64,000 nucleotides of DNA from Clostridia bacterium (lineage in GTDB: Bacteria; Bacillota; Clostridia; Oscillospirales; CAG-272): assembly GCA_017502135.1 (NCBI GenBank), contig JAFVVP010000001.1, positions 220,255-284,254 on the forward strand, read 5' to 3'. The position numbers and the translations under genes were made by a program. Positions 6,498 through 29,956 of the stretch are shown here, in pieces (positions within the stretch are counted from its first letter, which is position 1; each line of letters opens with the position of its first letter). The notes under the pieces are model-generated. The model saw only the letters and a program-made list of their open reading frames with translations, was not told where the DNA came from and searched no databases.

Positions 6498-6510
6498 AGT
6501 TATTACCTCG

Positions 6511-10022: not shown

Positions 10023-11224
10023 TATTCCACCACCTCAAAGAATGTGTCGGGATGGTTCGGGTCAAACTGTTCGTTTGCCCACATCACCGTCACAAGATTT
10101 TCCGTTTCGGAAAGATTGATGATATTGTGAGTATATCCTGGAAGCATATGTACAGCCTCAATTTTATCTCCCGAAACTTCAAAGTTCAGCACCTCATCTG
10201 TGCCAATCTTGCGTTGTTGGATCAGTCCATGACCCGCAACAACAATGAAAAACTCCCACTTGGTATGATGCCAATGCTGCCCCTTGATAATGCCGGGTTT
10301 GGATATATTTACGCTGAACTGACCGCATTTGTCGGTTTTCAGGAGTTCGGTAAAGCTGCCTCTTGCATCCTCATTCATCTTCAATGGAAACGATACTTTC
10401 TCTTTCGGAAGATAGCTGAGGTATGTGCTGTACAGCTTCTTTGCAAAGCTGTTATCGGGAATTTCGGGCATAACAAGCGTCGCCGTCTGTGCTTTGAACG
10501 TCTCAAGAAGATCCACGATCTCGCCGAGCGTTACCTTGTGCGTGATCGATGCGGCGCAGTATTTGCCGCTTTCTGCGAGAACGGTACGGATGCCGTCAAA
10601 TTCACAGCGGTGCTCCTTGCCCTCGAGCGCATCCAGCATCTCCGTTACGAGATCGTCAATGTAGAGAAGCTCGAGTTGTACGTTTCTGTCGCTGACCGTG
10701 ATCGGCAGATCGTTTGCGATGTTATGGCAAAAGGTAGCGACGGCGGAGTTGTAATTTGGTCTGCACCACTTGCCGAACAGATTCGGAAAGCGGTAAACGA
10801 GCACTTTTGCGCCGGTTTCTTCTCCGTAGGCGAAGACGAGATCCTCGCCGGCTTTTTTGCTTCTGCCGTAGTCGCTGTCATACCGTCCGATGCACGTCGC
10901 CTGGATGGAGGACGATATCATAAGGGGGCATATGTTCCCGTGCTTTTCCATCGTATCCAGAAGCGTGTTTGTGAAGCCAAAATTCCCCTCCATGAATTCC
11001 TGGGGATTTTGGGGTCGGTTCACGCCTGCCAGATGGAATACGAAATCCGCATCGGCACAGTACCGATCTAAAAGAGCGAGATCGGTGTCGATGTCGTATT
11101 CATAAATCTCGCCGATCGTGAGATCGGGGCGAGTTTTGTCCTTGCCGTCGCGTACGTTTTTCAAAGCGGCACAAAGGTTTTTTCCGACGAATCCCTTGGC
11201 GCCCGTAACAAGAATGTTCATCAT
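10022..11224 (-). CDS. fnlB: bifunctional SDR-cupin reductase/epimerase of the UDP-L-FucNAc pathway (FnlB/CapF type)
   Basis: Has the N-terminal 'ILVTGAKGFVGKNL' SDR domain and a C-terminal cupin ('KGQHWHHTKWEFF'). It shares 1 nt with fnlC and 4 nt with fnlA. Confidence 0.85.
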   Translation of the reverse strand: MMNILVTGAKGFVGKNLCAALKNVRDGKDKTRPDLTIGEIYEYDIDTDLALLDRYCADADFVFHLAGVNRPQNPQEFMEGNFGFTNTLLDTMEKHGNICPLMISSSIQATCIGRYDSDYGRSKKAGEDLVFAYGEETGAKVLVYRFPNLFGKWCRPNYNSAVATFCHNIANDLPITVSDRNVQLELLYIDDLVTEMLDALEGKEHRCEFDGIRTVLAESGKYCAASITHKVTLGEIVDLLETFKAQTATLVMPEIPDNSFAKKLYSTYLSYLPKEKVSFPLKMNEDARGSFTELLKTDKCGQFSVNISKPGIIKGQHWHHTKWEFFIVVAGHGLIQQRKIGTDEVLNFEVSGDKIEAVHMLPGYTHNIINLSETENLVTVMWANEQFDPNHPDTFFEVVE

Positions 11225-12264
11225 CGCTTTGTATCCTTGTTCAGCTCATCCTGAATGTATTGGAGACTTGCGATTTTTGCTTTCGTTTCCTCTACCGTGA
11301 GAAGTTTCGTATTGTTGGAGTTGAACTCCGTGAGCGTGTTGCGCTCGGTATCCCCTTTGTTGAAATACTTATCATAGTTCAGCCCGCGTTTGTCGCAGGG
11401 GACGCGGTAGAAGTTGCCCATATCCTCGGCGTTGGCGCACTCTTCATTGGTGAGAAGCGTTTCATACATCTTCTCGCCGTGGCGGATACCGATGACCTTG
11501 ATATCCTTCTTGTTGCCGCCGAACAACTCACAAACTGCTTCAGCCTGCGTCTGAATCGTGCAGGCGGGTGCTTTCTGCACAAGGATATCGCCCGGCTCGC
11601 CGTTCTCGAATGCGAACAGGACCAAATCGACCGCCTCGTCGAGCGACATAATGAATCGCGTCATAGCGGGATCGGTAAGAGTGATTGGGCTTCCGCTTTG
11701 GATCTGCTGGATCCAGAGTGGGATAACCGAGCCGCGTGAGCACATAACGTTTCCGTAACGGGTACAACAGATCTTGGTCTTGTCTGTCGTTCTTGCCTTC
11801 GCTACGACGACCTTTTCCATCATCGCCTTGGAGGTGCCCATCGCGTTTACAGGATAGGCGGCCTTGTCGGTCGAGAGACACACGACATTCTTGACGCCCG
11901 CTTCGATGGCGGCTGTCAGCACGTTCTCCGTGCCGAGGACGTTCGTTTTAACCGCCTCGATCGGGAAGAACTCGCAGGAAGGAACCTGCTTCAGCGCCGC
12001 CGCGTGGAATATGTAGTCGACGCCGTGCATGGCGTTCTTGACGGAGGCAATATCCCGCACATCGCCGATGTAAAACTTGATCTTATCGGCAACTTCGGGC
12101 ATTTTCACCTGAAACTCGTGGCGCATATCGTCCTGCTTTTTTTCGTCGCGGGAGAAAATGCGGATCTCGCCGATATCGGTTTTGAGAAAGCGATTCAGTA
12201 CGGCGTTTCCGAACGATCCCGTACCGCCGGTGATGAGAAGGGTTTTGTTAGTGAATAAAGACAT
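11221..12264 (-). CDS. fnlA: UDP-GlcNAc 4,6-dehydratase/5-epimerase, inverting (FnlA/CapE type)
   Basis: 'LLITGGTGSFGNAVLNRFL...IRIFSRDEKKQ' is the characteristic CapE/FnlA N-terminus. 347 aa. Confidence 0.9.
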   Translation of the reverse strand: MSLFTNKTLLITGGTGSFGNAVLNRFLKTDIGEIRIFSRDEKKQDDMRHEFQVKMPEVADKIKFYIGDVRDIASVKNAMHGVDYIFHAAALKQVPSCEFFPIEAVKTNVLGTENVLTAAIEAGVKNVVCLSTDKAAYPVNAMGTSKAMMEKVVVAKARTTDKTKICCTRYGNVMCSRGSVIPLWIQQIQSGSPITLTDPAMTRFIMSLDEAVDLVLFAFENGEPGDILVQKAPACTIQTQAEAVCELFGGNKKDIKVIGIRHGEKMYETLLTNEECANAEDMGNFYRVPCDKRGLNYDKYFNKGDTERNTLTEFNSNNTKLLTVEETKAKIASLQYIQDELNKDTKR

Positions 12265-12282: not shown

Positions 12283-13731
12283 TTAAATTTGTTTTCTTTT
12301 CAGTTTTCCTTTGATCAGATTCAAAAGGAAAAAGAAACTCTCATTTTTGAGGATGTACGAAAGTCCGACGAATAGGATAACTCCCAAAAGAACCTGTGCG
12401 ATAAGGAGTGTGAGGGGGGCTTTGATAAGAAATCCCACACAGTATACGCATACGCCCATAACAAGGCTGATCGAAAGGTTTTCTATAATATCTTTTGCCT
12501 GCTCGCTGAACGAATAGTCAAGTAGTTTTCGGTTGGCGGCAACGTCCAGCGCCATATTGAACACGGACGCGGCAGCCGCGCCTATGGCAATAGCCAAGAC
12601 GCCGAACTTCATAGATACGATCAGTATGAGAATACCGACGACTCTTTTTGTGATTTCAAGTTTTAACAATATACCACTGCGTCCCGTGGATTTGATCACC
12701 TGCAAATGAGCGCTTGACACGGGAATGCACAACTGATACAGACATACGATCTGCAAGAAGGGAACACACTCCAGCCATTTGTCTGTCAGAAGAATTTCTA
12801 TAAAGGGATTTGCGCAAGCGGCCAGTCCCAAAAGGAACGGACTGAGTACGTAGGTGGCGAGCTTTATGGCCTGGCGGAGTTTGTTTTTCAGTTCAGGAAG
12901 ATTGTCCTGATATTTTGCAAATGCGGGAAAAAGCACGGAGCAGAGGGAAGTGTTTAAGTTGGAAACGAGCAGATTGGGGTACTGCTTCCCTTTTGAATAA
13001 TATGCCAGATCGGAGCTGCCGTATTTTTTTCCGATGACGAGGCTGTAAATGTCGTCATACAGCGTTCTTACGAGGTATGTCAGGAGTACTTTCCAACCGT
13101 AACTGTAAAGAACCTTGAAGCGTTTTACGGAAAAGGTGCGCCGCGGCCGCCATTTGATGATGAACCACAGCATAACGGTATCGATAAAACCGTTTGTTAA
13201 ATACTGACCCACCAACGCAAAGACGCCAAAGCCTTGATATGCCATGTAAATTCCAACGAACGCTGATGCGACCGTGCCGCCGAGCGTTGCCCAGAACAGT
13301 TTACGGAACATCATGTGCTTGGCAACGTAAGCCTGCTGAATGGAGTTAAACGCCGTAATCGGGATCTTAAGGCCGAGAATACGTAAAGCGAGGCTGAGGT
13401 CCGGCATCGAGAAGTACCTCTCCACAAGCGGCGCGCCTACGAATATAACGCCGTATAAAGCCGCGGAAAAAAGAATGTTGAAATAGAATATCGTGGAGAA
13501 ATCCACGTCGTCAGAATCTTTTTTCTGGATCAAAGAAGAGGTGAATCCGCTCGCGACGAATACGTTGGCGATATTGATGAAAATCAGTATGATCGATATG
13601 CTGCCGTAATGTTCCGGATTCAGTATGCGTGCCAATACGATGGACACGATAAGGGTAACGAGCTGCGCGCCGATGCGCTCGGCAAATTTCCAGAACAGGT
13701 TTACCAAAACGCTTTGTTTTTTGTTATTCAT
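12283..13731 (-). CDS. wzx: Wzx-type oligosaccharide flippase (MOP superfamily)
   Basis: 482-aa AT-rich ORF predicted as a polytopic membrane protein with the typical polysaccharide-biosynthesis-protein N-terminus. Confidence 0.8.
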   Translation of the reverse strand: MNNKKQSVLVNLFWKFAERIGAQLVTLIVSIVLARILNPEHYGSISIILIFINIANVFVASGFTSSLIQKKDSDDVDFSTIFYFNILFSAALYGVIFVGAPLVERYFSMPDLSLALRILGLKIPITAFNSIQQAYVAKHMMFRKLFWATLGGTVASAFVGIYMAYQGFGVFALVGQYLTNGFIDTVMLWFIIKWRPRRTFSVKRFKVLYSYGWKVLLTYLVRTLYDDIYSLVIGKKYGSSDLAYYSKGKQYPNLLVSNLNTSLCSVLFPAFAKYQDNLPELKNKLRQAIKLATYVLSPFLLGLAACANPFIEILLTDKWLECVPFLQIVCLYQLCIPVSSAHLQVIKSTGRSGILLKLEITKRVVGILILIVSMKFGVLAIAIGAAAASVFNMALDVAANRKLLDYSFSEQAKDIIENLSISLVMGVCVYCVGFLIKAPLTLLIAQVLLGVILFVGLSYILKNESFFFLLNLIKGKLKRKQI

Positions 13732-13821: not shown

Positions 13822-14160
13822 TTAAGATATCGTTTCGTATCCGGCGAGGCGGATGGCTTCGATGGCTAAGAGATGTGCCGGATCCACCATATCGGTGTTC
13901 TCGAGAGAGAGGAAGGCGAGCGGCAATTCCGCGCCCGCGTGCACCAATCGGTTTGCCGCCTCCAGTATATAAGGGACGGGGCTTTCGGCTCCTTTTAATA
14001 TAGCCGCGGCGCGGTCTGGAATCTGTGGATAATTGTCTATAAGGATATGTATATGCTCGCTGTCTTTGTCCGCTTTCGTAAGCAGAATTAGCTTTCTAAA
14101 GAGTTCAGCCGTAGCAAGTGGTCCCATGCCGCCTACAATTCCGATTGTTTTCCTTATCAT
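13822..14160 (-). pseudogene. internally deleted Asp/Glu-racemase family relic (112 aa)
   Basis: The N-terminus 'IGIVGGMGPLATAELFRKL...IPDR' matches aspartate racemase. After '...HAGAE' it joins directly to a C-terminal-like 'LPLAFL...DPAHLLAIEAIRLAG'. The region that normally holds both catalytic Cys motifs is absent. Confidence 0.6.
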
Positions 14161-14226
14161 TTATTGAATTCTCAACGGTTTTTCGTACTCGATGTGCGGT
14201 TTTTTTGGCTGTACGGTGTTTATTCC

Positions 14227-15366
14227 TTATTCTGCCTGTATCGCTTCGAGCAACAGTTCTCTCCATGATTCACTCTCGATTGTGTTTTGGAGAACAAGCA
14301 ACGCGTTTTTATCGTAGGAATGTGTAAGATAATAGTTTAGAAATTTCTCCCCGAACAAACGCATACATACACGGAAGATGAACGAATGGCAGAGGCGTCC
14401 GTTCACGCGCAGAAGCAACTGCTTTCGGGACGCTTTCGCAAATTCCGCATATTTTGCTTTCCACGTTTCATCCGAGAGAAGTTCCTGTGAGCGTGCGTAG
14501 AAGGCTTCAAGGATGGTGCGTGCATCCTCCGTGTCGGCCAGGCGGACTTTGTTCCCGTGTTTTCTTAGGGGGTGGTAGGAAACTGTAACACCCGCATCAG
14601 AAATATCGCATTCGACCAACAGTCCGGTTTGCCATTCTTCTTTTTCTGAATGGTCAAAGAGGAAATTGCCTTGACCATATACGATCTTTTTGTCTTTGTA
14701 GTCTTCCTCGCAGCCAATACAGTGCGTGTGCTGACAAAGAACGATATCTGCGCCGCAGTCCACAAATTTTCGGCACAGTTTTCGTACGCCGGGTGACGGA
14801 TAACGACAGTATTCCTTGCCGCCGTGGTACAGTACGATGAGATAATCGCATTGTTCGCGCAGAGAGCGAACGTGGTCGAAACTTTCAAGCGGATCGTACG
14901 GATTGGCGCCTGCGGCATCTTCTGTGGCTATGGAGAATTCATGCTCCGCACAGCAATAGATGCCTAAGATTTTTCCGTCAACCGCAACTAAATGAGGGCG
15001 GGAGGCTTTTGCCAAGGTTTTACCTACCCCGGCGTATGCGATCCCGGCAGTATCCAATACATCCAAAGTGAAGGTAAGCCCTTCTTCTCCGTGATCGAGA
15101 ATGTGATTGTTAGCGAGCGTAAAGAAGTCTACACCAAAACGTTTGATTGCCGCCACTGTGGCGGTTTCGGCGCGCAAAGCGGGACCGCATTTGGCGATCG
15201 GTGTTTCTCTGTCTGTTAGAGGGGTTTCTAAATTAAATATACGGTAAGAGGCATTCTCCAGCAATGCTTTGAGGGGGGCGCCCAGTAGTTCTTCAACGTT
15301 TGCTTCGGCAAACAGCGCCATATTTCTTTTCGTTGGCACCAAATCAGCGCCGATCAATATTTTCAT
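14227..15366 (-). CDS. CapA/PGA_cap-family metallophosphatase-like protein (no signal peptide or TM seen)
   Basis: The motifs 'NLETPLT','LANNHILDHGEEG','VLYHGGKEY' and 'LCQHTHC' fit the CapA (poly-gamma-glutamate capsule) domain family. Confidence 0.7.
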   Translation of the reverse strand: MKILIGADLVPTKRNMALFAEANVEELLGAPLKALLENASYRIFNLETPLTDRETPIAKCGPALRAETATVAAIKRFGVDFFTLANNHILDHGEEGLTFTLDVLDTAGIAYAGVGKTLAKASRPHLVAVDGKILGIYCCAEHEFSIATEDAAGANPYDPLESFDHVRSLREQCDYLIVLYHGGKEYCRYPSPGVRKLCRKFVDCGADIVLCQHTHCIGCEEDYKDKKIVYGQGNFLFDHSEKEEWQTGLLVECDISDAGVTVSYHPLRKHGNKVRLADTEDARTILEAFYARSQELLSDETWKAKYAEFAKASRKQLLLRVNGRLCHSFIFRVCMRLFGEKFLNYYLTHSYDKNALLVLQNTIESESWRELLLEAIQAE

Positions 15367-15428
15367 AAAACCGAACCTCTCGTGTACGTTGCGTCTATTG
15401 GGAAAATATTTAGAGCAGTGAAGGGGAT

Positions 15429-16370
15429 TTACAGATTTTTCTTTGGAAGAGTAAACTGTTCACCGAGCGTTTTATCAAACTCTGCGGGATGATATGGTGT
15501 GTGTCCGCCACCGGGATAGAATGTGAGCTCTGCAACATACAACTTTTCGTCTGTGTCAAAGAAATCCACTCTGACAAACGGGAAATCTTTTGCGAGAACT
15601 TTGCATATTTGCAGCATTTGCTCCAGATGTGGGGGCTTCGGAACATCGCCGTTTTCGTGATCACCGTATTTAACGTTCATGCGATTCCAAGCCATGTCGT
15701 AAAACGAAATGGGGTATCGTTTTGTATTTTCGCCGCTTTTGAAGTGATCCATAGCGGCGTATACGCAGTACGGCTCACCGCTGAAACAGAAGAATTTGTA
15801 ATCGTAGAGCTGCTCGCCGAGCCATTCCACATATTCTTCAGCAATGATCCGAGGCGTTGCATTATGATATGCACAGCAATAGGAGTCGATCAGCGTATTT
15901 TTCACTTTAAGCCATGGTTTTAATTCTTTGAACAGTTGCTTTTTGTCTACGAGATCTTTGTTTTTGATAAATTTGATATTTTTACCATCGCTCTGCAGGG
16001 TGGATTTCAAAACGAAAGATTGCGGCAATTTATCAAAATCTCGCTCAAGTGATTTTATGTCTGTCCATGCACCGAAATAGGGGATTACGAATCCTTCGCC
16101 CAGTTTTTCGGTTATGTATCCCTTAAACAAAAACTTGTCAACAGCGCGTTCCATATCCTCCGTCCTATAATTCACCTTATACCACTGGAGTTTCTCGGTG
16201 AAAAGTTCGGGAGCATCTATGTTCAACTCTCTCTTGTGAAATGCAAGATAGCTTTGCTTCAAATTTTTAATCAAAGCTTTTTTGGACCATTTGTTTTTCG
16301 TCGGTGCCAGTGCTGCACGTACTTTGCGATATGTACGGATAAATTTATTTTTCAGCATATTCTTCCTCAC
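15429..16370 (-). CDS. TupA-like ATP-grasp amidoligase (copy 2)
   Basis: Family motifs 'FTEKLQWYK','FVLKSTL','YDYKFFCFSGEP','FPFVRVDFF' and 'AELTFYPGGG'. A 4-nt start/stop overlap links it to the upstream dehydrogenase. Confidence 0.8.
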   Translation of the reverse strand: MRKNMLKNKFIRTYRKVRAALAPTKNKWSKKALIKNLKQSYLAFHKRELNIDAPELFTEKLQWYKVNYRTEDMERAVDKFLFKGYITEKLGEGFVIPYFGAWTDIKSLERDFDKLPQSFVLKSTLQSDGKNIKFIKNKDLVDKKQLFKELKPWLKVKNTLIDSYCCAYHNATPRIIAEEYVEWLGEQLYDYKFFCFSGEPYCVYAAMDHFKSGENTKRYPISFYDMAWNRMNVKYGDHENGDVPKPPHLEQMLQICKVLAKDFPFVRVDFFDTDEKLYVAELTFYPGGGHTPYHPAEFDKTLGEQFTLPKKNL

Positions 16371-17350
16371 TTACAGAAGCATCCGTGTTCTGTTCTGAAG
16401 GCTGTAATCCGTTTATCCTCTATATGTCCTTCTTTTATTACAGTTGCTTCCTTTAAATTTTCGGGCAATTCGTCAAGGGTATTTTCGACTATTACGTCTA
16501 TGTATCTCGAAATTCCTTCACTGAGCGTCTTCGTTACTGTAACGGGATACATCGCCGGAGTATTATCTACGGCATAATGTATTACTCCGTCCACTTCGTA
16601 AACGGGGTTATCAATCGTGGTGGGGTGAGATGTTTCTATCTCCAAATGTGGATCGCAGCTTATGTCGATGATCAGTGTTCCTTTTTTCATCTTTTTAAGA
16701 TCTTCTTTATAAATGATTCGATCTTTGCGGGTTGTGTCCCACATGACACAGTTTACAAGTACATCATATTCAAACATTTTCTTTTTGAAAAGTTGCTCGA
16801 GTTTTCTACCGTAAACATCGACCGTTGCGCCTAAACCATGCAGAATTCTCAAAGCGCCTTTGGCGGTTTGTCCGTTTCCTAAAATAGCTATTCTGCTATC
16901 ATAAGGCATTCTGCCGCAGTAACGGAAAGCATGCAAAATAGCTGCTTCTCCGGCAACCTCTCTGTTGCGGTAGAAAATGTATCTGCCGTCCTCAAAGATT
17001 TCCTCCCAGGCGATCACGGTATGATTCCCGTTAAGGATTTTGCTCGTGAAATCGATTCCTTGAACAGCATGTGCCCATCCAAAAAATATCTTCGGAGTTT
17101 TGATTTCATCCAAATAATCTGCATCACCGAGCTTCACATCCGTGATGATATCGCACGAAAGAACTTCTTCACGGGAAACAACATGGGCGCCTGTTTTTTC
17201 ATATTCGGAATCTTTATAGCCTACGGACTGACCATATCCTTTTTCAAAATACAAGCAATCAACGTTCTTAACCTTGATTAAATCAGGTGGCAAAATTGCT
17301 CGTCTCATTTCATTGTTTTTGTGGCTGATCAAAAAACCGATTGTGTTCAT
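16367..17350 (-). CDS. short AlaDH/PNT-fold NAD(P) dehydrogenase, N5-(1-carboxyethyl)ornithine-synthase-like
   Basis: 327 aa with the 'IAILGNGQTAKGA' dinucleotide loop, 'KKGTLIIDISCD' and 'YAVDNTPAMYP'. Size and layout resemble opine-type (carboxyethyl)ornithine/lysine synthases rather than full-length alanine dehydrogenase. Confidence 0.55.
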   Translation of the reverse strand: MNTIGFLISHKNNEMRRAILPPDLIKVKNVDCLYFEKGYGQSVGYKDSEYEKTGAHVVSREEVLSCDIITDVKLGDADYLDEIKTPKIFFGWAHAVQGIDFTSKILNGNHTVIAWEEIFEDGRYIFYRNREVAGEAAILHAFRYCGRMPYDSRIAILGNGQTAKGALRILHGLGATVDVYGRKLEQLFKKKMFEYDVLVNCVMWDTTRKDRIIYKEDLKKMKKGTLIIDISCDPHLEIETSHPTTIDNPVYEVDGVIHYAVDNTPAMYPVTVTKTLSEGISRYIDVIVENTLDELPENLKEATVIKEGHIEDKRITAFRTEHGCFCK

Positions 17351-18279
17351 TTTTTCCTCGATTCTATATTAAGCATATTCCCGAATAAAATATCCGTTTC
17401 CGGAAGTCTGGCTGAATCCAGACCTGCCGCGGGCGTAAACGTTAATTCCCCGAAATAGGGTTTTTCATCAATGGAATACAAGTCAACGCGGACAAACGGG
17501 AAAGGTGCGGCCAACTTCTCAGCGTATTCGAATATTTTGTCAATACACGCGGGCTTCGGTAAGGTAAATCCCTCGGGTGCCGCTTTGCTGTCTCTGTTGA
17601 CTCTGTACAACTGCCAGTCCCGATCAAAGAAATAGAACTTAGGCCGACCGTACTCTCGACCTATGCAAACAAAAACGCATTTGGCTTTGCCATTGAAGCA
17701 GTATACTTTATAATCCAAAGGCAAAAGTCCGTTTCCGTCGGACATATACTTTTCGCAAACGATTTTCTTCGGCGCGTATTTATACTGCATTTCGGAGTTT
17801 CTCAGCCAGTATTTGCGCTTGCCCCATTTTTGCAGTTGTTTGATCGTGGCATCTTTGTCCATTTTGGATTTATCGGCGCATATAATATTCATCCCTGCAC
17901 CGAAATTCCACTTGAGTACGAACTGCTGCGGTAATTCATCCCAATTAATGTCTTCTGCGCGGTCGAAAGCGCTGTACATATCAATCAGCAGTTCTTCACA
18001 GCCGCAATCCTTTATATATTCTCTGACGGCGTATTTGTCCGCGCATTGAATGACCAAAGGATTTTTTAAATATGTATTGAGTTTCAGCCACAAAATTTTT
18101 TCGTTTAAGGTTTGGGGATCGTTAAGGTTGAGCTTGCGCCCGAAATTCATTTTATATCTGAATTTGGTATTCAGCGTCGGTGAAATAATTGTGAGCACCG
18201 ATGCATACAAATCCACACATTTGGTACATACGCCTGGCACCCAGGGGAGTACTCTTTTTACCGATTGTTTTATGCTCAT
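17347..18279 (-). CDS. TupA-like ATP-grasp amidoligase (copy 1)
   Basis: Motifs 'LNEKILWLKL','QFVLKWNF','LDYKVYCFNGKA','FPFVRVDLY' and 'GELTFTPAAG'. It is a paralogue of 15429..16370. Confidence 0.8.
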   Translation of the reverse strand: MSIKQSVKRVLPWVPGVCTKCVDLYASVLTIISPTLNTKFRYKMNFGRKLNLNDPQTLNEKILWLKLNTYLKNPLVIQCADKYAVREYIKDCGCEELLIDMYSAFDRAEDINWDELPQQFVLKWNFGAGMNIICADKSKMDKDATIKQLQKWGKRKYWLRNSEMQYKYAPKKIVCEKYMSDGNGLLPLDYKVYCFNGKAKCVFVCIGREYGRPKFYFFDRDWQLYRVNRDSKAAPEGFTLPKPACIDKIFEYAEKLAAPFPFVRVDLYSIDEKPYFGELTFTPAAGLDSARLPETDILFGNMLNIESRKK

Positions 18280-18379: not shown

Positions 18380-19078
18380 TTATCTTTCCCACTTAATATC
18401 TTCTTTGAGAATTTTCGCCGGGGTCCCACCGATTAATAAATGATCGCCTTCGAATGATTTGACAACCAAGCTTCCGTAGGATACTACGCAGTCGTTGCCG
18501 ATGGTGACACCTTTTAAAATGTCGCTTTTGTTGCAAATCCAGACGTGATCCCCGATGAGGACCGGCTTGCGATCGGGTTGTGCAGTAAAATCCGCATCCT
18601 CCGTACGGCTGAAAACCGTATGTCCGTCGGAGTCTCTCACAACCACATCACCACCGAGCAAGCAATTTTCTCCGAAGGTAATTCCCGAAACGCAGGATAG
18701 TTTACATCCGTTGTTGCATGAGAATCCATTTCCGATAGTCATCGTGGCACCGTGCTTCACTAACAGGTTAAAGTGAGGAGCAAAGTGTGCTTTTCCGGCA
18801 AATACCAAACGGCAATCCGTATCTACTTCCAAAATGCTGGTTTTCGGATTATACGCTATGAGATCGGAAGAACCTCCGAAGCCGAGTGAAATCATAAACG
18901 TGTGCACAGGTCCGTTAATGATAACAGATCCGCGGCTGCACCCGCGTATCTTCACCCGTCTTGATACAGCAAAAGGCATACGGATTGCAGATTTAAAAGG
19001 GAGCAAGCGGAAGTTCAAATACAGAGTTTTGATAAAACTGAACCGTCCGGTCCATAAGAGAGATATTTTTTTAAACAT
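18380..19078 (-). CDS. hexapeptide-repeat (left-handed beta-helix) acyltransferase
   Basis: Hexapeptide repeats such as 'IGNGFSCNNGCKL','FGENCLLGGDVVV' and 'IGDHVWICNKSDI'. The ATG at 19078 is preferred because it abuts the upstream GT4 stop, whereas the track start at 19096 would overlap that gene by 16 nt. Confidence 0.75.
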   Translation of the reverse strand: MFKKISLLWTGRFSFIKTLYLNFRLLPFKSAIRMPFAVSRRVKIRGCSRGSVIINGPVHTFMISLGFGGSSDLIAYNPKTSILEVDTDCRLVFAGKAHFAPHFNLLVKHGATMTIGNGFSCNNGCKLSCVSGITFGENCLLGGDVVVRDSDGHTVFSRTEDADFTAQPDRKPVLIGDHVWICNKSDILKGVTIGNDCVVSYGSLVVKSFEGDHLLIGGTPAKILKEDIKWER

Positions 19079-19080
19079 AC

Positions 19081-20175
19081 CTATTCCCTCGAACAATCAA
19101 ATTGTGAAAGATCGCTGCAGAACGAGAGTATGTACGAGCGCCATTGCTCGGCGATGACTGATTTATCCAAAACGCCGTTCAGTTTCACGGCGTTTTCGCT
19201 CATGCGGGCGGCCAAAGAAGGATCGCTCAGTATCCGACGCATCGCATCTTCAAGTTGCTTTTGATCATCCAAATCCACCAGTATGCCGTTTTTGTTGCTT
19301 TGGATCATGTCCGTAGCACCCGATACGGAGGTGGAGACACAGGGGAGGCCGAGACACATGGCTTCGGCCAGGGCATTCGGCATGCCCTCATAATTAGAGG
19401 AGAGCACGAAAAGCCGTGCGGGACAAATTTTATCGAATACCATTTTTTCGCTTCCCGGAAGAAGTACGTAGTCTTCGAGCGACAAAGATGCGATAAGTTC
19501 TTCCAGTTCTTTTCTTGCAGGGCCCTCTCCGAAAATGGCCAAACGGAAATCCGGATATTCCTTATGTATCCCGGCAAACGCACGGATCAGCATGGCCTGG
19601 TTCTTCTGCGGCATCAGACGTCCGACCGAAACGATCAGATCCTCTTTGGAGGTGCGGAGCGCCTCGCCCTTGCGTTCGCCCAAAGAGAGCGGATTGTAGA
19701 TGACGGTGCTTTTCTTTTGTACCGCTTTGGAAAAATACTGTTTGTTGTGGTTGGTTTGAATGATGATCCCGTCCGCAAAACGGTACAGAAAATCGCGTGC
19801 TTTACGTATGAGCGGGTTTGCGGGAACAAAATGCGGGTCGTTTCGATCAGCTACAAGGACAGGGATCGGCAATCCTCGGGTGGAAAGGATCGCCATCATG
19901 TTGAAGACGGCGAGAAACGATACAACAACCGAAGAATTTCGGCGGAAAAATTTCCGCAGCCACAGAAGCCTTTTTAACAGACCGCCGTTTTCGGTCTCCT
20001 TACCTGCGCTTACGATCTCCACGCGGGGATCCGGCGGATAAAACAACTCTCGGTCATGGTATAAAACGAGCAAAACCTCGTGTCCTTTGTCTGCCAAATA
20101 TGAGGTCAGGTGAGAGACGACTCTCTCAGCACCGCCTTCCTCCAGGCTTCCGATAAAAAAAGTAATTTTTTTCAT
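19081..20175 (-). CDS. GT4-family (GT-B fold) glycosyltransferase
   Basis: Has 'KITFFIGSLEEGGAERV' at the N-terminus and the EX7E-type 'SNYEGMPNALAEAMCLGLP' motif. Confidence 0.85.
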   Translation of the reverse strand: MKKITFFIGSLEEGGAERVVSHLTSYLADKGHEVLLVLYHDRELFYPPDPRVEIVSAGKETENGGLLKRLLWLRKFFRRNSSVVVSFLAVFNMMAILSTRGLPIPVLVADRNDPHFVPANPLIRKARDFLYRFADGIIIQTNHNKQYFSKAVQKKSTVIYNPLSLGERKGEALRTSKEDLIVSVGRLMPQKNQAMLIRAFAGIHKEYPDFRLAIFGEGPARKELEELIASLSLEDYVLLPGSEKMVFDKICPARLFVLSSNYEGMPNALAEAMCLGLPCVSTSVSGATDMIQSNKNGILVDLDDQKQLEDAMRRILSDPSLAARMSENAVKLNGVLDKSVIAEQWRSYILSFCSDLSQFDCSRE

Positions 20176-20203
20176 GCTCCTACCTCACAATGGCGTACTG
20201 TTT

Positions 20204-21490
20204 TTATACTATACATTTCTTTTGCCCGAGGAGACGGGGGGGATGTTCTTTTTCGTCTGAAAATCGCAGAATATAGCCGATGATAAAGAAGTACAGCATC
20301 ATACCGAAGTAGGATTGCACAAAAGTGTTTGATATTGCAGCAATCATAAAAGGGAACAGCATGCATATGCCGACCTTAGTTACGGCTGTTTTGATGATTC
20401 TTATCCACAAAAGGAATCCTAAAATGCCCGTAGCACCCAAAATCAAAAAGAAATCGTTGTGGTAGCCGGTCGTTCCTTTATAAAAGTCCTCGGTCCTACC
20501 GTTTCCGCTTATGCCGGTTCCCCATAAAGGAGAGTGCCGGAAGCGATTCCAGAACACGTCTGCTCTCAGAAACGGTCTGGAGATACTTTCCGTGCCCGTA
20601 TCGTCGTGTTCGGCGTCGAAGATATCTGTGATCGTATCCATTCTGTCAAGGCTGATCTGGATATTTGGGTAACGTTGTACGAGTGAGCCCCACAACAGTC
20701 CCACTGCGAGAACGATGATGACGGCGATTGGAATGATTTTTTTGAGTAACTTTATATTGGTGTTGTTTTTCTTTACGATCCAAACAGTCAGATACGCCAA
20801 TATGAGCAGAGAGTGCAATAACTCACCGCGGCTGCTTACGATAATATCCGCAGCGATTGACAAAAGATACAACGAAGCCAACTTCAGGTTGGAAAGCTTG
20901 AGTTTGTCATATCGGTATAAAAGTACTACCAGTAAAAGAATCATATTGGTGATCAAAAGCGATGAGTTGGGGTTGCCGATGATGCCGCCGTTCCGGTAAT
21001 ATCCGTCAATAAACGTATCAACGGAAACGCTGTACAGCTTTACCATAAAGGACGGCGCTGAACGGCCGAGGAGTGCCAGCGTGCAGTTTATAACGACGTT
21101 GGCAACAAAACTCCAATAGGCGGCCATTCGTGCTCTTCCGCGGCAGGTGTAGCCATAATGTACACTGCCGATCATGAGAATCGTGCCGATAAGGATTTTG
21201 AAAAAGGTGGTTCTTGCGGATACACCGTATATGAGTGCTGACCAAAACTCACCAAAGCAAAGCAGGGCAGTGTAGGCAAACAGGCTTGTAAGTACTGGTT
21301 GAGCACCACCCAGTGTCAATCTTTTTCTGCTTATCCAATCCATAAGCATGAACAGAATGGACAAAAAGGCGATACCGTATGAGATTTTTATCGAAAACCC
21401 CAAAATTTTTACTACGGGCATTACCGCACAGTCGAAAATAAATATGGCGCACGGCCAGTTGGTCGGCCGCATTTTCAGTTTTATGTTCAT
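20204..21490 (-). CDS. wzy: Wzy-type repeat-unit polymerase / O-antigen-ligase-family membrane protein
   Basis: 428-aa AT-rich polytopic membrane ORF with a large loop before the last helices ('RPFLRADVFWNRFRHSPLWGTG'). Confidence 0.7.
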   Translation of the reverse strand: MNIKLKMRPTNWPCAIFIFDCAVMPVVKILGFSIKISYGIAFLSILFMLMDWISRKRLTLGGAQPVLTSLFAYTALLCFGEFWSALIYGVSARTTFFKILIGTILMIGSVHYGYTCRGRARMAAYWSFVANVVINCTLALLGRSAPSFMVKLYSVSVDTFIDGYYRNGGIIGNPNSSLLITNMILLLVVLLYRYDKLKLSNLKLASLYLLSIAADIIVSSRGELLHSLLILAYLTVWIVKKNNTNIKLLKKIIPIAVIIVLAVGLLWGSLVQRYPNIQISLDRMDTITDIFDAEHDDTGTESISRPFLRADVFWNRFRHSPLWGTGISGNGRTEDFYKGTTGYHNDFFLILGATGILGFLLWIRIIKTAVTKVGICMLFPFMIAAISNTFVQSYFGMMLYFFIIGYILRFSDEKEHPPRLLGQKKCIV

Positions 21491-21491
21491 G

Positions 21492-22646
21492 TTATTTTCT
21501 GCCTTTTAATCTTTTGCTCAGGGCCTTTATGGCGCCACGTGCACCGTGCCTTAATGTTTTTTTCCAGTGCAGGTAACCTATATCGAAATCAACAATCCGG
21601 TTTTCATTGCTTGGCGGTGGAGCATCTGTTTTTGTATGAAGATCGTATAAAAAGATTCCGGTTCCCCGTTCCCCATGAACGAGATTATTCTCGTGCGGCT
21701 TTACGGCAAGGGCGTATTCTTCGAACACTTTATACGGCAGTCTTCTCGTTGAAAAGAGGAGATCGGCTCCCTCGTACGTTTTTTTCTTGCCGTACAGGTC
21801 CAGGCATATTTTCTTCCCGGTACAAAAGGGTGTTTGGATATTCATATCTTTCCGCTCGAAAAACAGATCGTATTTTACCGAACCGTCAAGCGGACAGAAA
21901 GCGAACGTATCCTTCTCGCCTTCCTGCATAACGACGTGGTAGTCAGACACGTCGGCTTTGCAGTGCTCTCCGGCTATCGTGTAATTGGTCGTATAAGAAT
22001 AATAGGGGTAAATTACATATTTATCGGAGTCGGCGATGTAGTTCGTGAAATTCTTTTTCCAAGAGGTATCTTTCCATTTATTCACGTTATCCGGGATATG
22101 TTCTCTCGGCGCGATGAGTGCACACGAATAATATGGCGACGCTTTGAATGCCGCCCACATTTTTTTTGACCAGCATTCGCCCCACGATTGCGTAACCTGC
22201 ATGGCGTATACGTCATACTGTGTTTTTGCGGGATAAAACGGACGGGAAATGAATTCGTTTACCCCGTAGGCATAAAGGGAGATCTGTGCTACCCGTTCAT
22301 CGTTATCGTAATAATGCATTGCGGCTTTGGCATACCGGTAAAAATCCGGTGCTACCGTCAGATCGTCCTCAAGAACGATCACCCCGTCATACTGTTCGGA
22401 GAGTTCCCCGCAGGCGAGTATGTGGGGGCGCAGGCCCATACGGCTCTCGCGCATAATGATATTATAATTGCCGTGTTTCCAAACGGCATCCGCGCAGGCA
22501 TCGTATACCTCTTTTTGACAGTGGCTTTTATCGATACTGACGATAAGATCCACCGTGTCGCCGTCAAATCGGGCACGGATGATGGAGTCAACTAAACGAC
22601 GTGTTTCTTTGGGACGGCTGTAAGCAACAACGACCACTGCAATCAT
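21492..22646 (-). CDS. GT-A-fold glycosyltransferase
   Basis: Has 'IAVVVVAYSRPKETRRLVDSI' and the DxD-like 'VLEDDL' motif. 384 aa. Confidence 0.65.
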   Translation of the reverse strand: MIAVVVVAYSRPKETRRLVDSIIRARFDGDTVDLIVSIDKSHCQKEVYDACADAVWKHGNYNIIMRESRMGLRPHILACGELSEQYDGVIVLEDDLTVAPDFYRYAKAAMHYYDNDERVAQISLYAYGVNEFISRPFYPAKTQYDVYAMQVTQSWGECWSKKMWAAFKASPYYSCALIAPREHIPDNVNKWKDTSWKKNFTNYIADSDKYVIYPYYSYTTNYTIAGEHCKADVSDYHVVMQEGEKDTFAFCPLDGSVKYDLFFERKDMNIQTPFCTGKKICLDLYGKKKTYEGADLLFSTRRLPYKVFEEYALAVKPHENNLVHGERGTGIFLYDLHTKTDAPPPSNENRIVDFDIGYLHWKKTLRHGARGAIKALSKRLKGRK

Positions 22647-22649
22647 GGC

Positions 22650-23165: not shown

Positions 23166-23167
23166 AC

Positions 23168-24834: not shown

Positions 24835-24852
24835 GCTGTTCTCCTCTGTCAG

Positions 24853-25977: not shown

Positions 25978-26049
25978 CGTTCAGTCTCCGTATTTCTTTA
26001 CATATTAAAGATTGTCCGTTTGTAAGCCGGTATAGGGTGTTGTTCAAAA

Positions 26050-26745: not shown

Positions 26746-26764
26746 ATGTAATCCTCGTCAAAGT

Positions 26765-27991: not shown

Positions 27992-28091
27992 ATTCAGTAC
28001 CCCTTGTCCGATAAGATGTTTCAAGTTTTTCTCAAATACCGTAACAGTATATTCCCGAAAGCAAAAGAGCATTCTAATCCCAATTATATTT

Positions 28092-29101: not shown

Positions 29102-29166
29102 GCCGACCGTGTCGGCATCCTTTCGTTTTTCGCTTTTCTGAAAACAGAAGCAAAGGCGGTGGCAGT

Positions 29167-29951: not shown

Positions 29952-29956
29952 TCGTT

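What the first reader, a model, noticed from the sequence alone, without database searches (positions are those of the whole stretch)
13822..18279. Two TupA-like ATP-grasp amidoligases bracketing an opine-synthase-like dehydrogenase inside a glycan locus: predicted amino-acid- or opine-amidated uronic-acid polysaccharide
Seen in the sequence: ORFs 17347..18279 and 15429..16370 are clear paralogues. They share the motifs NEK-x-x-W-x-K, (Q)FVLK, DYK-x-(Y/F)CF-x-G, FPFVRVD and ELTF-x-P. Each is joined by a 4-nt start/stop overlap to 16367..17350, a 327-aa AlaDH/PNT-fold dehydrogenase (ILGNGQTAKGA, YAVDNTPAMYP). That protein's short format resembles N5-(1-carboxyethyl)ornithine / N6-(1-carboxyethyl)lysine synthase rather than alanine dehydrogenase. 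Directly downstream are a cytoplasmic CapA (PGA_cap)-like protein and a gutted Asp/Glu racemase.

Established knowledge: the TupA-like ATP-grasp family is named for a teichuronopeptide (uronic acid plus amino acid polymer) gene and is associated with amide bond formation on uronate carboxyls. Opine-type N-(1-carboxyethyl)lysine amide-linked to GalA is a known decoration of some Gram-negative O-antigens.

Inference: together with the UDP-GlcA 4-epimerase and uronate-kinase-like genes in the same operon, this module would make an opine-type amino acid from pyruvate plus Orn/Lys. It would then ligate that product, or a dipeptide built in two ATP-grasp steps, to a GalA/GlcA residue. An alternative is a short peptide side chain as in teichuronopeptide. 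I am not aware of a characterised tightly coupled ligase-dehydrogenase-ligase cassette of this kind in Clostridia.
Basis: partly seen in the sequence, partly recalled or inferred. Interest (0 to 1): 0.8.

Follow-up and report, generated by a model that had tools for sequence, protein, structure and literature searches.

The report
Opine-adding ligase cassette in glycan locus
A surface-polysaccharide gene cluster of a gut Clostridia-type bacterium carries two amide-forming ligases wrapped around a small dehydrogenase that most likely makes an unusual "opine" amino acid, so the sugar chain is probably decorated with that compound; the same ligase-dehydrogenase pairing recurs widely in gut bacteria and has not been characterised.

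Summary
On the minus strand lie two TupA-like ATP-grasp ligases (AGA 17347-18279; AGB 15429-16358/16370; 30% identical). They flank a 327-aa AlaDH/PNT-fold dehydrogenase (16367-17350). A PGA_cap protein and a dead racemase fragment follow, all inside a Wzx/Wzy glycan locus.

The dehydrogenase is not a true alanine dehydrogenase. It scores 98 bits against a cut-off of 392, and a 99.5% bootstrap split excludes it. It shares both deletions, an [R/K]-N motif and a basic NADP-type motif with Lactococcus CEOS-annotated proteins. Orthology to CEOS is unresolved (30% identity).

The main new evidence is comparative. Of 21 informative AGA-like ligase lineages, 11 carry this dehydrogenase. Four carry a non-homologous octopine-family opine dehydrogenase in its place. 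A UDP-sugar 6-dehydrogenase often sits next to the module. The characterised TupA enzyme Cj1438C amidates glucuronate C6.

Best model (about 0.55): the DH makes an N-(1-carboxyethyl) amino acid. AGA amide-links it to a GalA/GlcA residue. AGB adds a second amide, and PGA_cap may epimerise.

The window has no Ugd, and the "uronate kinase" is only GalK-like. No biochemistry exists. I rate it a new variant of a known kind, interest about 0.6.

The parts
17347..18279 (-). AGA: TupA-like ATP-grasp amidoligase (310 aa). It belongs to the subfamily that is habitually coupled to an opine-type dehydrogenase. Predicted to join the DH product to a uronate C6 carboxyl.
   Evidence: PF14305 at 137.7 bits against a cut-off of 25. 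ATGA overlap with the DH start. 5369 homologues. In 15 of 21 informative lineages a DH or ODH lies in the locus.
16367..17350 (-). DH: 327-aa short-form AlaDH/PNT-fold dehydrogenase. Predicted NADPH-dependent N-(1-carboxyalkyl) amino acid (opine) synthase, CEOS-like.
   Evidence: Pfam. AlaDH equivalog at 97.9 bits against a cut-off of 391.85. Excluded from the AlaDH clade in 99.5% of bootstraps. Shares two deletions, the R-N motif and the Y-x-R-K motif with Lactococcus CEOS-annotated proteins. AF2 model at pLDDT 85.9, TM 0.8 to AlaDH.
15429..16358 (-). AGB: second TupA-like ATP-grasp amidoligase (309 aa from ATG 16358; alternative GTG start at 16370). A distinct subfamily, 30% identical to AGA. 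Predicted second amide-bond step.
   Evidence: PF14305 at 149.7 bits. Comparison with AGA. Start-site analysis. 2491 homologues. Part of the same triplet in L044-L047, L053-L057, L064 and L144.
14227..15366 (-). PGA_cap (CapA/MslH-type calcineurin-like fold) protein of 379 aa, with no N-terminal membrane anchor seen by eye. A possible epimerase of the appended residue.
   Evidence: PF09587 at 173.5 bits. The only solved relatives are MslH, 8GQ9, E 2.9e-16. Seven of eight MslH catalytic or metal residues are kept: D8, E47, N87, H88, D91, H181, H215 (PMC10406935). It co-occurs with the DH in L011, L013, L022, L023, L026 and L062.
13822..14160 (-). Remnant of an Asp-racemase-type gene (112 aa). 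An internal deletion removed both catalytic cysteines, so it is non-functional.
   Evidence: Only profile positions 1-69 of 211 match. asp_race/CuyB-type N-terminus. Sequence inspection, and absence from the relatives L053 and L055.
12283..13731 (-). Wzx-type flippase of the locus.
   Evidence: Polysacc_synt_3 at 311.9 bits.
8832..12264 (-). FnlA/FnlB/FnlC-type genes (UDP-L-FucNAc pathway type). Context only.
   Evidence: Pfam families listed for the identical genes in L044. Translations. The pathway assignment comes from established knowledge of Cap5E/F/G-FnlABC and was not tested.
7725..8813 (-). SDR epimerase, UDP-GlcA/UDP-GalA 4-epimerase type. The only uronic-acid pathway gene in the window.
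   Evidence: 48% identity, E 9e-120, to the epimerase paired with ugd in L048. PDB relatives BcUGAepi 6ZL6 and MoeE5. Has SSSSVYG where a dehydratase would have the DE motif.
5760..7695 (-). GalK-like GHMP sugar-1-kinase (6511-7695) and sugar-1-phosphate nucleotidyltransferase (5760-6569). Specificity unknown; this is the distal end of the locus.
   Evidence: TIGR00131 at 206.7 bits, below its cut-off of 226.65. NTP_transferase Pfam match.
18380..28120 (-). Upstream part of the same-strand glycan locus: hexapeptide acyltransferase, GT4, Wzy, GT2/GNT-I-like, two hexapeptide acyltransferases, two GT4, a Bac_transf initiating transferase, and a DegT/LegC-type aminotransferase.
   Evidence: Pfam and NCBIfam. 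Identical gene order in L044.

Best explanation
The three tightly packed genes form a tailoring module of a Wzx/Wzy-type surface polysaccharide locus.

Step 1 (inferred): the short AlaDH/PNT-fold dehydrogenase carries out an NADPH-dependent reductive condensation of pyruvate, or another 2-oxo acid, with the amino group of a free amino acid. By analogy with CEOS the amino acid is a diamino acid such as Lys or Orn. The product is an N-(1-carboxyethyl) amino acid, that is, an opine.

Step 2 (inferred from family precedent and gene context): AGA uses ATP to activate the C6 carboxyl of a GalA/GlcA residue that is already glycosidically bound. It then forms an amide with the free amine of the opine.

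Step 3 (speculative): AGB, a different TupA subfamily, forms a second amide. It either adds a further amino acid to a free carboxyl of the side chain or amidates another carboxyl.

Step 4 (speculative): the MslH-like PGA_cap protein epimerises the residue that carries the free alpha-carboxylate. This would replace the need for the now-dead racemase.

What is shown: gene identities, family memberships, exclusion from AlaDH, the conserved module, and its partners in other genomes. What is not shown: every catalytic step and the substrates.
For: Family calls: PF14305 twice, AlaDh_PNT_N plus C, and PGA_cap.

The DH is not an AlaDH:
- 97.9 bits against the 391.85 cut-off.
- The AlaDH clade split has 99.5% support and never contains it.

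Characters the DH shares with Lactococcus CEOS-annotated proteins and other short forms:
- Both deletions relative to AlaDH.
- [R/K]-N in place of P-M-S before the AG motif.
- A basic Y-x-R-K at the end of beta-2 where AlaDH has an acidic residue.
- The catalytic R16, K73, H94 and D233 are retained.

Annotation pipelines name 42%-identical relatives CEOS.

Translational coupling: ATGA overlap for AGA/DH and an 8-nt gap for DH/AGB.

The triplet is conserved in relatives with DHs 83-87% identical. One of these sits in a different glycan locus. It also occurs in L064 in permuted order and in L144.

AGA-centred survey of 80 metagenome loci. Of 21 informative lineages at 70% clustering:
- 8 have the DH adjacent and 3 have it nearby.
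- 3 have an octopine-family dehydrogenase adjacent and 1 has it nearby.
- The ODH call was verified: PF02317, E 3.8e-31, and full-length match to N-(1-D-carboxyethyl)-L-norvaline dehydrogenase 1BG6, E 2.5e-28.
- DH-linked and ODH-linked ligases interleave in one clade far from AGB.

Uronic-acid link:
- Ugd lies next to the module in L057, L058, L062, L068, L132, L138/L141 and L147.
- The window has a Gla-type 4-epimerase.
- Cj1438C, a TupA-like ATP-grasp, amidates C6 of glycosidic GlcA but not UDP-GlcA (PMC11800397, PMC11800379).

Chemical precedent: N-epsilon-(1-carboxyethyl)-L-lysine amide-linked to GalA in Providencia rustigianii O14 (PMC10609480).

Free-substrate inference: stand-alone and ligase-linked DHs interleave in the tree.
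Against: - No enzyme of this module or of its close relatives has been assayed.
- The DH is only 30% identical to the Lactococcus CEOS-annotated protein, against 27-28% to AlaDHs.
- In 33% of bootstrap replicates its clade is sister to the AlaDH clade.
- The closest solved structures and folds are AlaDHs.
- The R/K/H/D catalytic set is common to AlaDH, saccharopine dehydrogenase and CEOS, so it does not discriminate ammonia from an amine.
- 14 of 29 species-level DH loci have no ligase nearby, so the enzyme has a life outside glycan tailoring.
- The window has no Ugd.
- 6 of 21 AGA-like lineages have no DH or ODH within 6 kb.
- Octopine-family enzymes usually alkylate the alpha-amine. Unless the substrate is a diamino acid, this leaves no primary amine for a uronamide.
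- The roles proposed for AGB and PGA_cap rest on analogy only.
Confidence: 0.55

Rival explanations
1. The opine or amino acid is attached through its own carboxyl to an amino sugar, rather than through its amine to a uronic acid. This would be an N-acyl decoration like the alanopine on Qui4N in Providencia alcalifaciens O35. One or both TupA ligases would then activate the side-chain carboxylate, and the sugar amine would be the nucleophile.
For: The window locus encodes a DegT/LegC-type aminotransferase and three hexapeptide acyltransferases, so it makes amino sugars. It has no Ugd. Octopine-family enzymes normally yield alpha-N-alkylated imino diacids that lack a primary amine. None of the 34 ODH-linked loci showed a Ugd within 6 kb. 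The alanopine-Qui4N structure is known (PMC10609480).
Against: The only characterised TupA-type enzyme activates the uronate carboxyl (PMC11800397). Ugd lies immediately beside the DH-ligase module in at least seven independent loci. A Gla-type UDP-GlcA 4-epimerase is kept in the window and its relatives.
Confidence: 0.15
2. The dehydrogenase is a divergent amino-acid dehydrogenase. It makes an ordinary or rare amino acid from a 2-oxo acid plus ammonia, and the ligases then attach that amino acid. The decoration would be a simple amino-acid uronamide or a short peptide, as in teichuronopeptide, with no opine involved.
For: The closest solved relatives and folds are AlaDHs. The pyruvate-binding and catalytic residues are conserved. 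The tree position relative to AlaDH is unresolved in a third of replicates. Related cassettes carry glutamate racemase, a MurF-like ligase and many ATPgrasp_ST ligases, which suggests peptide building. Teichuronopeptide is poly-gamma-glutamate plus polyglucuronate (PMC8153356).
Against: It fails the AlaDH equivalog by a wide margin and is excluded from the AlaDH clade. It shares deletions and motifs with CEOS-type proteins. Replacement by a bona fide opine-dehydrogenase family member beside the same ligase subfamily is hard to explain if the job is ammonia fixation. A dedicated alanine supply would be redundant.
Confidence: 0.12
3. The chemistry is the same but the order differs. AGA first amide-links Lys or Orn to the uronate. 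The dehydrogenase then reductively alkylates the free side-chain amine of the glycan-bound (lipid-linked) residue with pyruvate.
For: Cj1438C shows that TupA-type amidation occurs on the growing glycan, so later tailoring on the glycan is conceivable (PMC11800397). The tight coupling of AGA and the DH fits either order.
Against: Stand-alone orthologues at 70-75% identity in non-glycan contexts interleave with ligase-linked ones. This argues that the enzyme uses soluble substrates. Characterised CEOS, by established knowledge, acts on free Orn/Lys.
Confidence: 0.1
4. The dehydrogenase has a housekeeping role unrelated to the glycan and is only a passenger between two ligases.
For: About half of the species-level DH loci are stand-alone, for example between murB/tilS and holA, or next to AzlD.
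Against: There is a start/stop overlap with AGA. The triplet is conserved across different locus backgrounds and gene orders. The DH is adjacent to AGA-like ligases in 8 independent lineages. Five different ligase families flank it elsewhere. The triplet has the lowest GC in the window, which suggests a mobile module.
Confidence: 0.05

Closest known systems
Cj1438 C-terminal domain of Campylobacter jejuni HS:2 (TupA-like ATP-grasp glucuronate amidoligase; PMC11800397, PMC11800379)
   Same: Same Pfam family (PF14305) and a capsule or glycan locus context. It performs ATP-dependent amide formation on the C6 carboxyl of a glycosidically bound uronic acid, which is the reaction proposed for AGA.
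   Different: Cj1438C is a domain of a multidomain glycosyltransferase. Its amines are serinol phosphate or ethanolamine phosphate, supplied by an aminotransferase or a decarboxylase. Here there are two stand-alone ligases, and the amine supplier is a dehydrogenase.
N5-(1-carboxyethyl)-L-ornithine synthase (CEOS, EC 1.5.1.24) of Lactococcus lactis, represented here by the PGAP-annotated plasmid gene in L049
   Same: AlaDH/PNT fold and short format (310 against 327 aa). It has the same two deletions relative to AlaDH, the [R/K]-N motif and a basic beta-2 end that suggests NADPH use. Pipelines give relatives of the window DH this name.
   Different: Only 30-32% identity. The Lactococcus clade is separate, with 99.5% support. 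The tree position of the window family is unresolved. Lactococcus ceo is a stand-alone gene with no known physiological role and is not in a glycan locus.
Octopine/nopaline-family opine dehydrogenases, e.g. N-(1-D-carboxyethyl)-L-norvaline dehydrogenase (PDB 1BG6)
   Same: They occupy the same slot next to AGA-like ligases in Bacteroidaceae and other gut loci. They are therefore probably functional analogues of the window DH.
   Different: An unrelated fold and family (PF02317), not present in the window.
O-antigens with N-epsilon-(1-carboxyethyl)-L-lysine amide-linked to GalA (Providencia rustigianii O14; PMC10609480)
   Same: This is the product class predicted here: a uronamide of an opine-type amino acid.
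   Different: A Gram-negative LPS. I could not find its genetic basis in the searchable literature. No structure is known for the organism of the window.
MslH, lasso-peptide C-terminal Trp epimerase (PDB 8GQ9; PMC10406935), and CapA/PgsA of poly-gamma-glutamate synthesis
   Same: PGA_cap family with a calcineurin-like fold. Seven of eight MslH catalytic or metal residues are conserved in the window protein. MslH acts on a residue with a free alpha-carboxylate, which is what a uronamide-linked amino acid presents.
   Different: The NCBIfam MslH equivalog scores 70.7 bits against a cut-off of 700. The position of His261 holds Gly. The substrate would be a glycan side chain, not a peptide. No membrane anchor like that of CapA was seen by eye.
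Teichuronopeptide (TupA) of Bacillus halodurans C-125
   Same: The namesake of the ligase family. It is a polymer that combines polyglucuronate with poly-gamma-glutamate (PMC8153356). Related cassettes (L144, L022, L062) carry glutamate racemase, Mur-type ligase, PGA_cap and many ATP-grasp ligases.
   Different: No dehydrogenase is described for it. The window has only two ligases and no intact racemase.

Membership tests
TupA-like ATP-grasp amidoligases (PF14305) | Match to the family HMM above the gathering score over nearly the full profile | tested here: met
   AGA scores 137.7 bits (profile 1-239 of 241) and AGB 149.7 bits (1-240 of 241), against a cut-off of 25.
TupA-like ATP-grasp amidoligases (PF14305) | Conserved ATP-grasp catalytic positions: Lys of FVLK, DYK, Arg/Asp of FVRVD, Glu of ELTF | tested here: met
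   Present in both proteins. K123, D189/Y190/K191, R264, D266 and E278 are invariant in 26 AGA-type sequences.
TupA-like ATP-grasp amidoligases (PF14305) | ATP-dependent amidation of a uronate C6 carboxyl, as shown for Cj1438C | not testable with these tools
   Only gene context is available: Ugd adjacency in related loci and a Gla-type epimerase in the window.
N5-(carboxyethyl)ornithine synthase (CEOS) type opine synthases of the AlaDH/PNT superfamily | AlaDh_PNT N- and C-terminal domains and fold | tested here: met
   Pfam at 48.5 and 85.6 bits. AF2 model at pLDDT 85.9, TM 0.8 to AlaDH structures.
N5-(carboxyethyl)ornithine synthase (CEOS) type opine synthases of the AlaDH/PNT superfamily | Short format with the two deletions relative to AlaDH, and the [R/K]-N motif | tested here: met
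   Alignment against the Lactococcus CEOS-annotated protein and three ald proteins.
N5-(carboxyethyl)ornithine synthase (CEOS) type opine synthases of the AlaDH/PNT superfamily | Monophyly or orthology with the Lactococcus enzyme | tested here: inconclusive
   30% identity. The window clade (100% support) and the Lactococcus clade (99.5%) are separate. The window clade is sister to AlaDH in 33% of NJ bootstraps. The reference is a PGAP-annotated plasmid gene, not the assayed K1 protein.
N5-(carboxyethyl)ornithine synthase (CEOS) type opine synthases of the AlaDH/PNT superfamily | NADPH dependence | tested here: inconclusive
   The end of beta-2 reads VDVYGRK, like RMYYRK of the Lactococcus protein. 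AlaDHs have ILE/IID there. This is a sequence inference only.
N5-(carboxyethyl)ornithine synthase (CEOS) type opine synthases of the AlaDH/PNT superfamily | Reductive condensation of pyruvate with the side-chain amine of Orn/Lys | not testable with these tools
   Indirect support comes from displacement by octopine-family dehydrogenases next to the same ligase subfamily.
L-alanine dehydrogenase (TIGR00518 equivalog) | Score above the curated equivalog cut-off | tested here: not met
   97.9 bits against a cut-off of 391.85.
L-alanine dehydrogenase (TIGR00518 equivalog) | Placement inside the clade of annotated ald genes | tested here: not met
   The AlaDH split has 99.5% support and excludes the window DH.
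PGA_cap / MslH-type metallo-epimerases | PGA_cap HMM match | tested here: met
   173.5 bits against a cut-off of 27.
PGA_cap / MslH-type metallo-epimerases | MslH equivalog score, and the full catalytic set Asp11, Glu44, Asn87, His88, Asp91, His259, His261, His295 | tested here: inconclusive
   The equivalog scores 70.7 bits against a cut-off of 700, so it is not met. Seven of eight residues are conserved, with Gly at the His261 position (PMC10406935).
Asp/Glu racemases (PF01177) | Full-length two-domain protein with two catalytic cysteines | tested here: not met
   Only profile positions 1-69 of 211 are matched in a 112-aa ORF. No Cys is present at either catalytic position.

The most novel reading that the evidence does not exclude
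The short AlaDH/PNT 'CEOS-like' enzymes have had no known physiological purpose. In many gut Firmicutes, Bacteroidota, Fibrobacter and Actinobacteria they may act as building-block suppliers for a widespread, combinatorial system. That system would decorate surface glycans, and perhaps other polymers, with opines and short opine-containing pseudo-peptides. One TupA ligase subfamily would be hard-wired to either of two non-homologous opine synthases. In the window version, a second ligase and an MslH-like epimerase would extend and stereo-invert the side chain on the glycan. This would be the first case of a PGA_cap epimerase working on a glycoconjugate.
Probability: 0.35. Interest if true: 0.75.

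Novelty: new variant of a known kind. Interest (0 to 1): 0.62.

Why it matters
- Amino-acid and opine amides change the charge and antigenicity of bacterial surface glycans. The genes that install opine-type decorations have not been characterised.
- If the model is right, it gives a genetic signature: an AGA-type TupA ligase plus either a CEOS-like or an octopine-type dehydrogenase. That signature would predict such decorations from sequence in gut commensals.
- It would supply a physiological role for the long-puzzling CEOS enzyme family.
- It would provide candidate enzymes for chemoenzymatic glycan modification.
- It would also explain part of the capsule diversity that phages and host immunity see in gut Clostridia and Bacteroidales.

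Tried and rejected
- Fold search of the DH model against the PDB. It returns only AlaDH and transhydrogenase dI and cannot separate AlaDH from CEOS, because no CEOS structure exists.
- Sequence search of AGB against the PDB found no hits.
- Literature searches found no paper on the genetics. The queries covered CEOS, AlaLys/carboxyethyl-lysine genetics, and opine dehydrogenase in polysaccharide clusters. The Riegert 2022 paper was not held.
- The E. coli plasmid 'hypothetical' next to its CEOS-like gene is not TupA-like by BLASTP or hhalign. It gives only faint hits to ATP-grasp enzymes, although PGAP calls the identical gene 'ATP-grasp domain-containing'.
- The window racemase fragment is not homologous to the intact glutamate racemase of L144. 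The idea that it is a remnant of that same gene was dropped.
- My first reading of gene cluster 'c2' as glycosyltransferases was wrong. They are ATPgrasp_ST ligases.
- Promoter and terminator scans across the cassette were at chance level or intragenic.
- A search for Ugd and for a CapD/PglF-type dehydratase in the window found none.
- The first Biopython bootstrap run timed out and was replaced by a numpy implementation.

Full report
**Observation.** The region lies in a long run of minus-strand genes.
- ORF 16367-17350 (DH, 327 aa) has AlaDh_PNT N- and C-terminal domains.
- ORF 14227-15366 is a PGA_cap protein.
- ORF 13822-14160 matches only the first third of the Asp/Glu racemase profile.

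AGA and AGB are 30% identical (E 1e-33), so they are old paralogues and not a recent duplication. The AGA stop and DH start form an ATGA overlap. For DH/AGB, the GTG start gives a GTGA overlap. However, an ATG 12 nt further on has a GAGGAAG ribosome-binding site and is the start used by gene callers on every related contig, which leaves an 8-nt gap. No convincing internal promoter or terminator was found. The triplet has the lowest GC content of the whole window, 41.9% against about 50-55% in the flanks.

**The surrounding locus.**
- Upstream lie a hexapeptide acyltransferase, GT4, Wzy, a GT2/GNT-I-like protein, two more hexapeptide acyltransferases, two GT4, a Bac_transf initiating transferase and a DegT/LegC-type aminotransferase.
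- Downstream lie Wzx, FnlA/B/C-type genes, an SDR epimerase, a GalK-like kinase and a nucleotidyltransferase.
- The locus is bounded by a SpoVT/AbrB-like gene on one side and by a SCIFF maturase and MreB on the other. This fits a spore-forming member of the Clostridia.
- The SDR at 7725-8813 carries SSSSVYG where a dehydratase would have the Asp-Glu motif. Its characterised solved relatives are UDP-GlcA 4-epimerases. It is 48% identical (E 9e-120) to the epimerase that sits next to ugd in an E. coli capsule locus. A UDP-GlcA/GalA 4-epimerase role is therefore well supported.
- The kinase scores below the galactokinase cut-off (206.7 against 226.65 bits). Nothing shows that it is a uronate kinase.
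- No UDP-glucose 6-dehydrogenase is encoded anywhere in the 64 kb.

**What the dehydrogenase is.**
- It fails the alanine dehydrogenase equivalog model by a wide margin, 97.9 against 391.85 bits.
- Its closest solved relatives by sequence and by fold are AlaDHs (E 7.5e-25; TM about 0.8 with a model of pLDDT 85.9). No CEOS structure exists, so this does not discriminate.
- I obtained reference sequences from annotated plasmids: Lactococcus genes annotated N(5)-(carboxyethyl)ornithine synthase, and ald genes of Bacillus, Staphylococcus and Mesorhizobium.
- In a 53-sequence alignment, the window protein shares several characters with the Lactococcus protein and other 310-330-aa forms. These are both deletions relative to AlaDH, an [R/K]-N motif where AlaDH has P-M-S, and a basic Y-x-R-K at the end of beta-2 where NAD-dependent AlaDHs carry Glu or Asp.
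- The R16/K73/H94/D233 positions common to the superfamily are kept.
- In neighbour-joining trees with 200 bootstraps, the AlaDH clade is a 99.5% split that never contains the window protein. The window family (100%) and the Lactococcus clade (99.5%) are separate, and in 33% of replicates the window family is sister to AlaDH.
- So it is not an AlaDH. It carries CEOS-type derived characters, but orthology with CEOS is not established at 30% identity.
- Annotation pipelines already call relatives CEOS.

**Where the dehydrogenase family lives.** It is large (1959 hits) and strongly conserved, at 60-75% identity across Oscillospiraceae, Fibrobacter, Paludibacteraceae, Tidjanibacter, Eggerthella and Merdibacter.
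- Of 29 species-level loci, 15 have at least one ATP-dependent amide ligase within 7 kb. The ligase types are TupA, ATPgrasp_ST, PylC-like, L-amino-acid-ligase type, other ATP-grasp, and CapK-like adenylate-forming enzymes. PGA_cap is often present too.
- The other 14 loci are stand-alone, for example between murB/tilS and holA, or beside AzlD.
- Ligase-linked and stand-alone members interleave in the tree. This suggests one reaction on soluble substrates.

**The key comparative result.** The exact window DH is always found in the AGA-DH-AGB-PGA_cap arrangement.
- Relatives with DHs 83-87% identical keep the triplet. Two have PGA_cap but no racemase remnant. One sits in a different glycan locus, where the triplet is followed directly by a UDP-sugar dehydrogenase.
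- The triplet also occurs in permuted order (L064).
- In L144 it is followed by a MurF-like ligase, an ATPgrasp_ST ligase and a bona fide glutamate racemase, ahead of the same Fnl genes.
- I sampled AGA-like ligases at 48-63% identity. The neighbour is either the same short DH (L058, L062, L147) or, in Bacteroidaceae, an octopine-family dehydrogenase (L060/L061).
- That protein matches PF02317 (E 3.8e-31). It aligns over its full length with N-(1-D-carboxyethyl)-L-norvaline dehydrogenase 1BG6 (E 2.5e-28).
- In 80 AGA-centred metagenome loci, clustered at 70% identity, 21 lineages were informative. Of these, 8 have the DH adjacent and 3 nearby, 3 have the octopine-type enzyme adjacent and 1 nearby, and 6 have neither.
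- The ligases with either partner interleave in one tight clade far from AGB.
- Replacement of one enzyme by a non-homologous enzyme whose family is known only for opine formation, at the same position beside the same ligase subfamily, is the strongest available argument that the window DH makes an opine-type amino acid.

**The acceptor.** A UDP-sugar 6-dehydrogenase lies immediately beside the ligase-DH module in L057, L058, L062/63, L068, L132, L138/141 and L147, and within a few kb in L131 and L015. An E. coli plasmid capsule locus pairs an ATP-grasp gene with an overlapping CEOS-annotated gene next to gla-like and ugd genes. The one biochemically characterised TupA-type enzyme, the C-terminal domain of Cj1438, forms an amide on the C6 carboxyl of glucuronate after the sugar has been added to the chain. 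It does not accept UDP-GlcA (PMC11800397, PMC11800379). Uronamides of N-epsilon-(1-carboxyethyl)-lysine are known in Providencia rustigianii O14 (PMC10609480). Together these support a uronic-acid acceptor, probably GalA, given the epimerase in the window. The absence of Ugd from the window and the presence of amino-sugar genes keep open the alternative of N-acylation of an amino sugar, as with alanopine on Qui4N (PMC10609480).

**The accessory genes.** The PGA_cap protein's only solved relatives are the MslH structures (E 2.9e-16). MslH epimerises the C-terminal residue of a peptide using Asp11, Glu44, Asn87, His88, Asp91, His259, His261 and His295 (PMC10406935). The window protein has D8, E47, N87, H88, D91, H181 and H215, with Gly at the His261 position. 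Most of these are invariant in nine cassette-linked PGA_cap proteins. A uronamide-linked amino acid presents a free alpha-carboxylate, like a peptide C-terminus, so an epimerase role is plausible but speculative. It fails the MslH equivalog model, 70.7 against 700 bits. The racemase ORF is an Asp-racemase-type N-terminus fused to a C-terminal tail. It lacks both catalytic cysteines, is decaying further in a sister contig, and is absent from the 85% relatives. It is unrelated to the glutamate racemase at the equivalent place in L144.

**Model and confidence.** I put about 0.55 on this sequence of steps:
1. The DH makes an N-(1-carboxyalkyl) amino acid from a 2-oxo acid and a free amino acid.
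2. AGA amide-links it to a GalA/GlcA residue of the growing repeat unit.
3. AGB forms a second amide.
4. PGA_cap possibly epimerises.

Steps 1 and 2 rest on family characters, precedent and strong gene-context evidence. Steps 3 and 4 rest on analogy. The rivals are:
- the opine or amino acid N-acylating an amino sugar (0.15);
- a divergent ammonia-using amino-acid dehydrogenase feeding a plain amino-acid or peptide decoration (0.12);
- alkylation of an already attached Lys (0.10);
- a passenger housekeeping gene (0.05).

**Novelty.** All protein families are known, and the predicted product class is known from Gram-negative O-antigens. I found no description of the ligase-dehydrogenase coupling, of the displacement between two opine-synthase families, or of such decorations in Clostridia or Bacteroidales. 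The searchable library is incomplete, however. I rate it a new variant of a known kind, with interest about 0.6.

Noticed in passing
window 16001-18000: The ligase-DH part of the cassette has the lowest GC content of the window (41.9%). The rest of the glycan locus is about 46-47% and the flanks are 50-57%. This suggests the module was acquired horizontally.
   Followed up: partly
window 4048-5424 (-): A SCIFF thioether-forming radical SAM maturase (TIGR03974, 745 bits against a cut-off of 425) lies just beyond the distal end of the glycan locus. MreB is at 2701-3729. I did not look for the SCIFF precursor peptide.
   Followed up: no
window 28373-28921 (+) and 29062-37621: A SpoVT/AbrB-like regulator bounds the locus upstream. 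Beyond it, judged by eye from the translations, lie an AraC-type regulator, a large glycoside hydrolase with weak similarity to a beta-L-arabinopyranosidase, a KDPG-aldolase-like protein, an enolase-superfamily dehydratase and an SDR. Together they look like a sugar-acid catabolic cluster.
   Followed up: no
L048 (E. coli plasmid NZ_AP027746.1, 163124-180185): A Wza/Wzb/Wzc capsule locus flanked by IS91 carries an ATP-grasp gene. That gene is unrelated to TupA, has no Pfam hit, and overlaps a 371-aa CEOS-annotated gene. A gla-like epimerase and ugd are also present. The locus occurs in only 2 of 5426 complete E. coli genomes, both on plasmids.
   Followed up: partly
L144 8911-13783: In a relative, the same TupA-DH-TupA triplet is followed by a MurF-like Mur ligase (232.9 bits, below cut-off), a 400-aa protein with no family, an ATPgrasp_ST ligase and a bona fide glutamate racemase. 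This suggests a peptidoglycan-stem-like peptide side chain containing D-Glu.
   Followed up: partly
L145 3234-13545 (Prevotella-type contig): An AGB-like ligase sits after Wzx and a 405-aa protein that has only the AlaDh_PNT_N domain. An ATPgrasp_ST ligase follows it, together with ACP, KAS III and ketoreductase genes. This may be an acylated amino-acid decoration.
   Followed up: no
L008 (Eggerthella sinensis DSM 16107), L013, L022, L026: Here the DH is embedded in arrays of three to six ATPgrasp_ST ligases, some fused in tandem (740 aa), often with PGA_cap and with few or no glycosyltransferases nearby. These may build opine-containing oligopeptides or polymers rather than glycan decorations.
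   Followed up: partly
L007 4936-6267, L011 7993-9258, L006 4588-6093: Proteins of 420-500 aa with no Pfam match recur directly beside the DH in ligase-rich cassettes. Two of them are 35% identical to each other. Their function is unknown.
   Followed up: no
L009/L010 (Tidjanibacter) and L012: Stand-alone DH copies sit among cell-envelope housekeeping genes (murB, tilS, holA). In L012 the upstream genes look, by eye, like MurT/GatD-type genes. That reading was not verified.
   Followed up: no
L058 9242-10726: The UDP-sugar dehydrogenase next to the ligase-DH pair is fused to an N-terminal HTH_3 DNA-binding domain.
   Followed up: no
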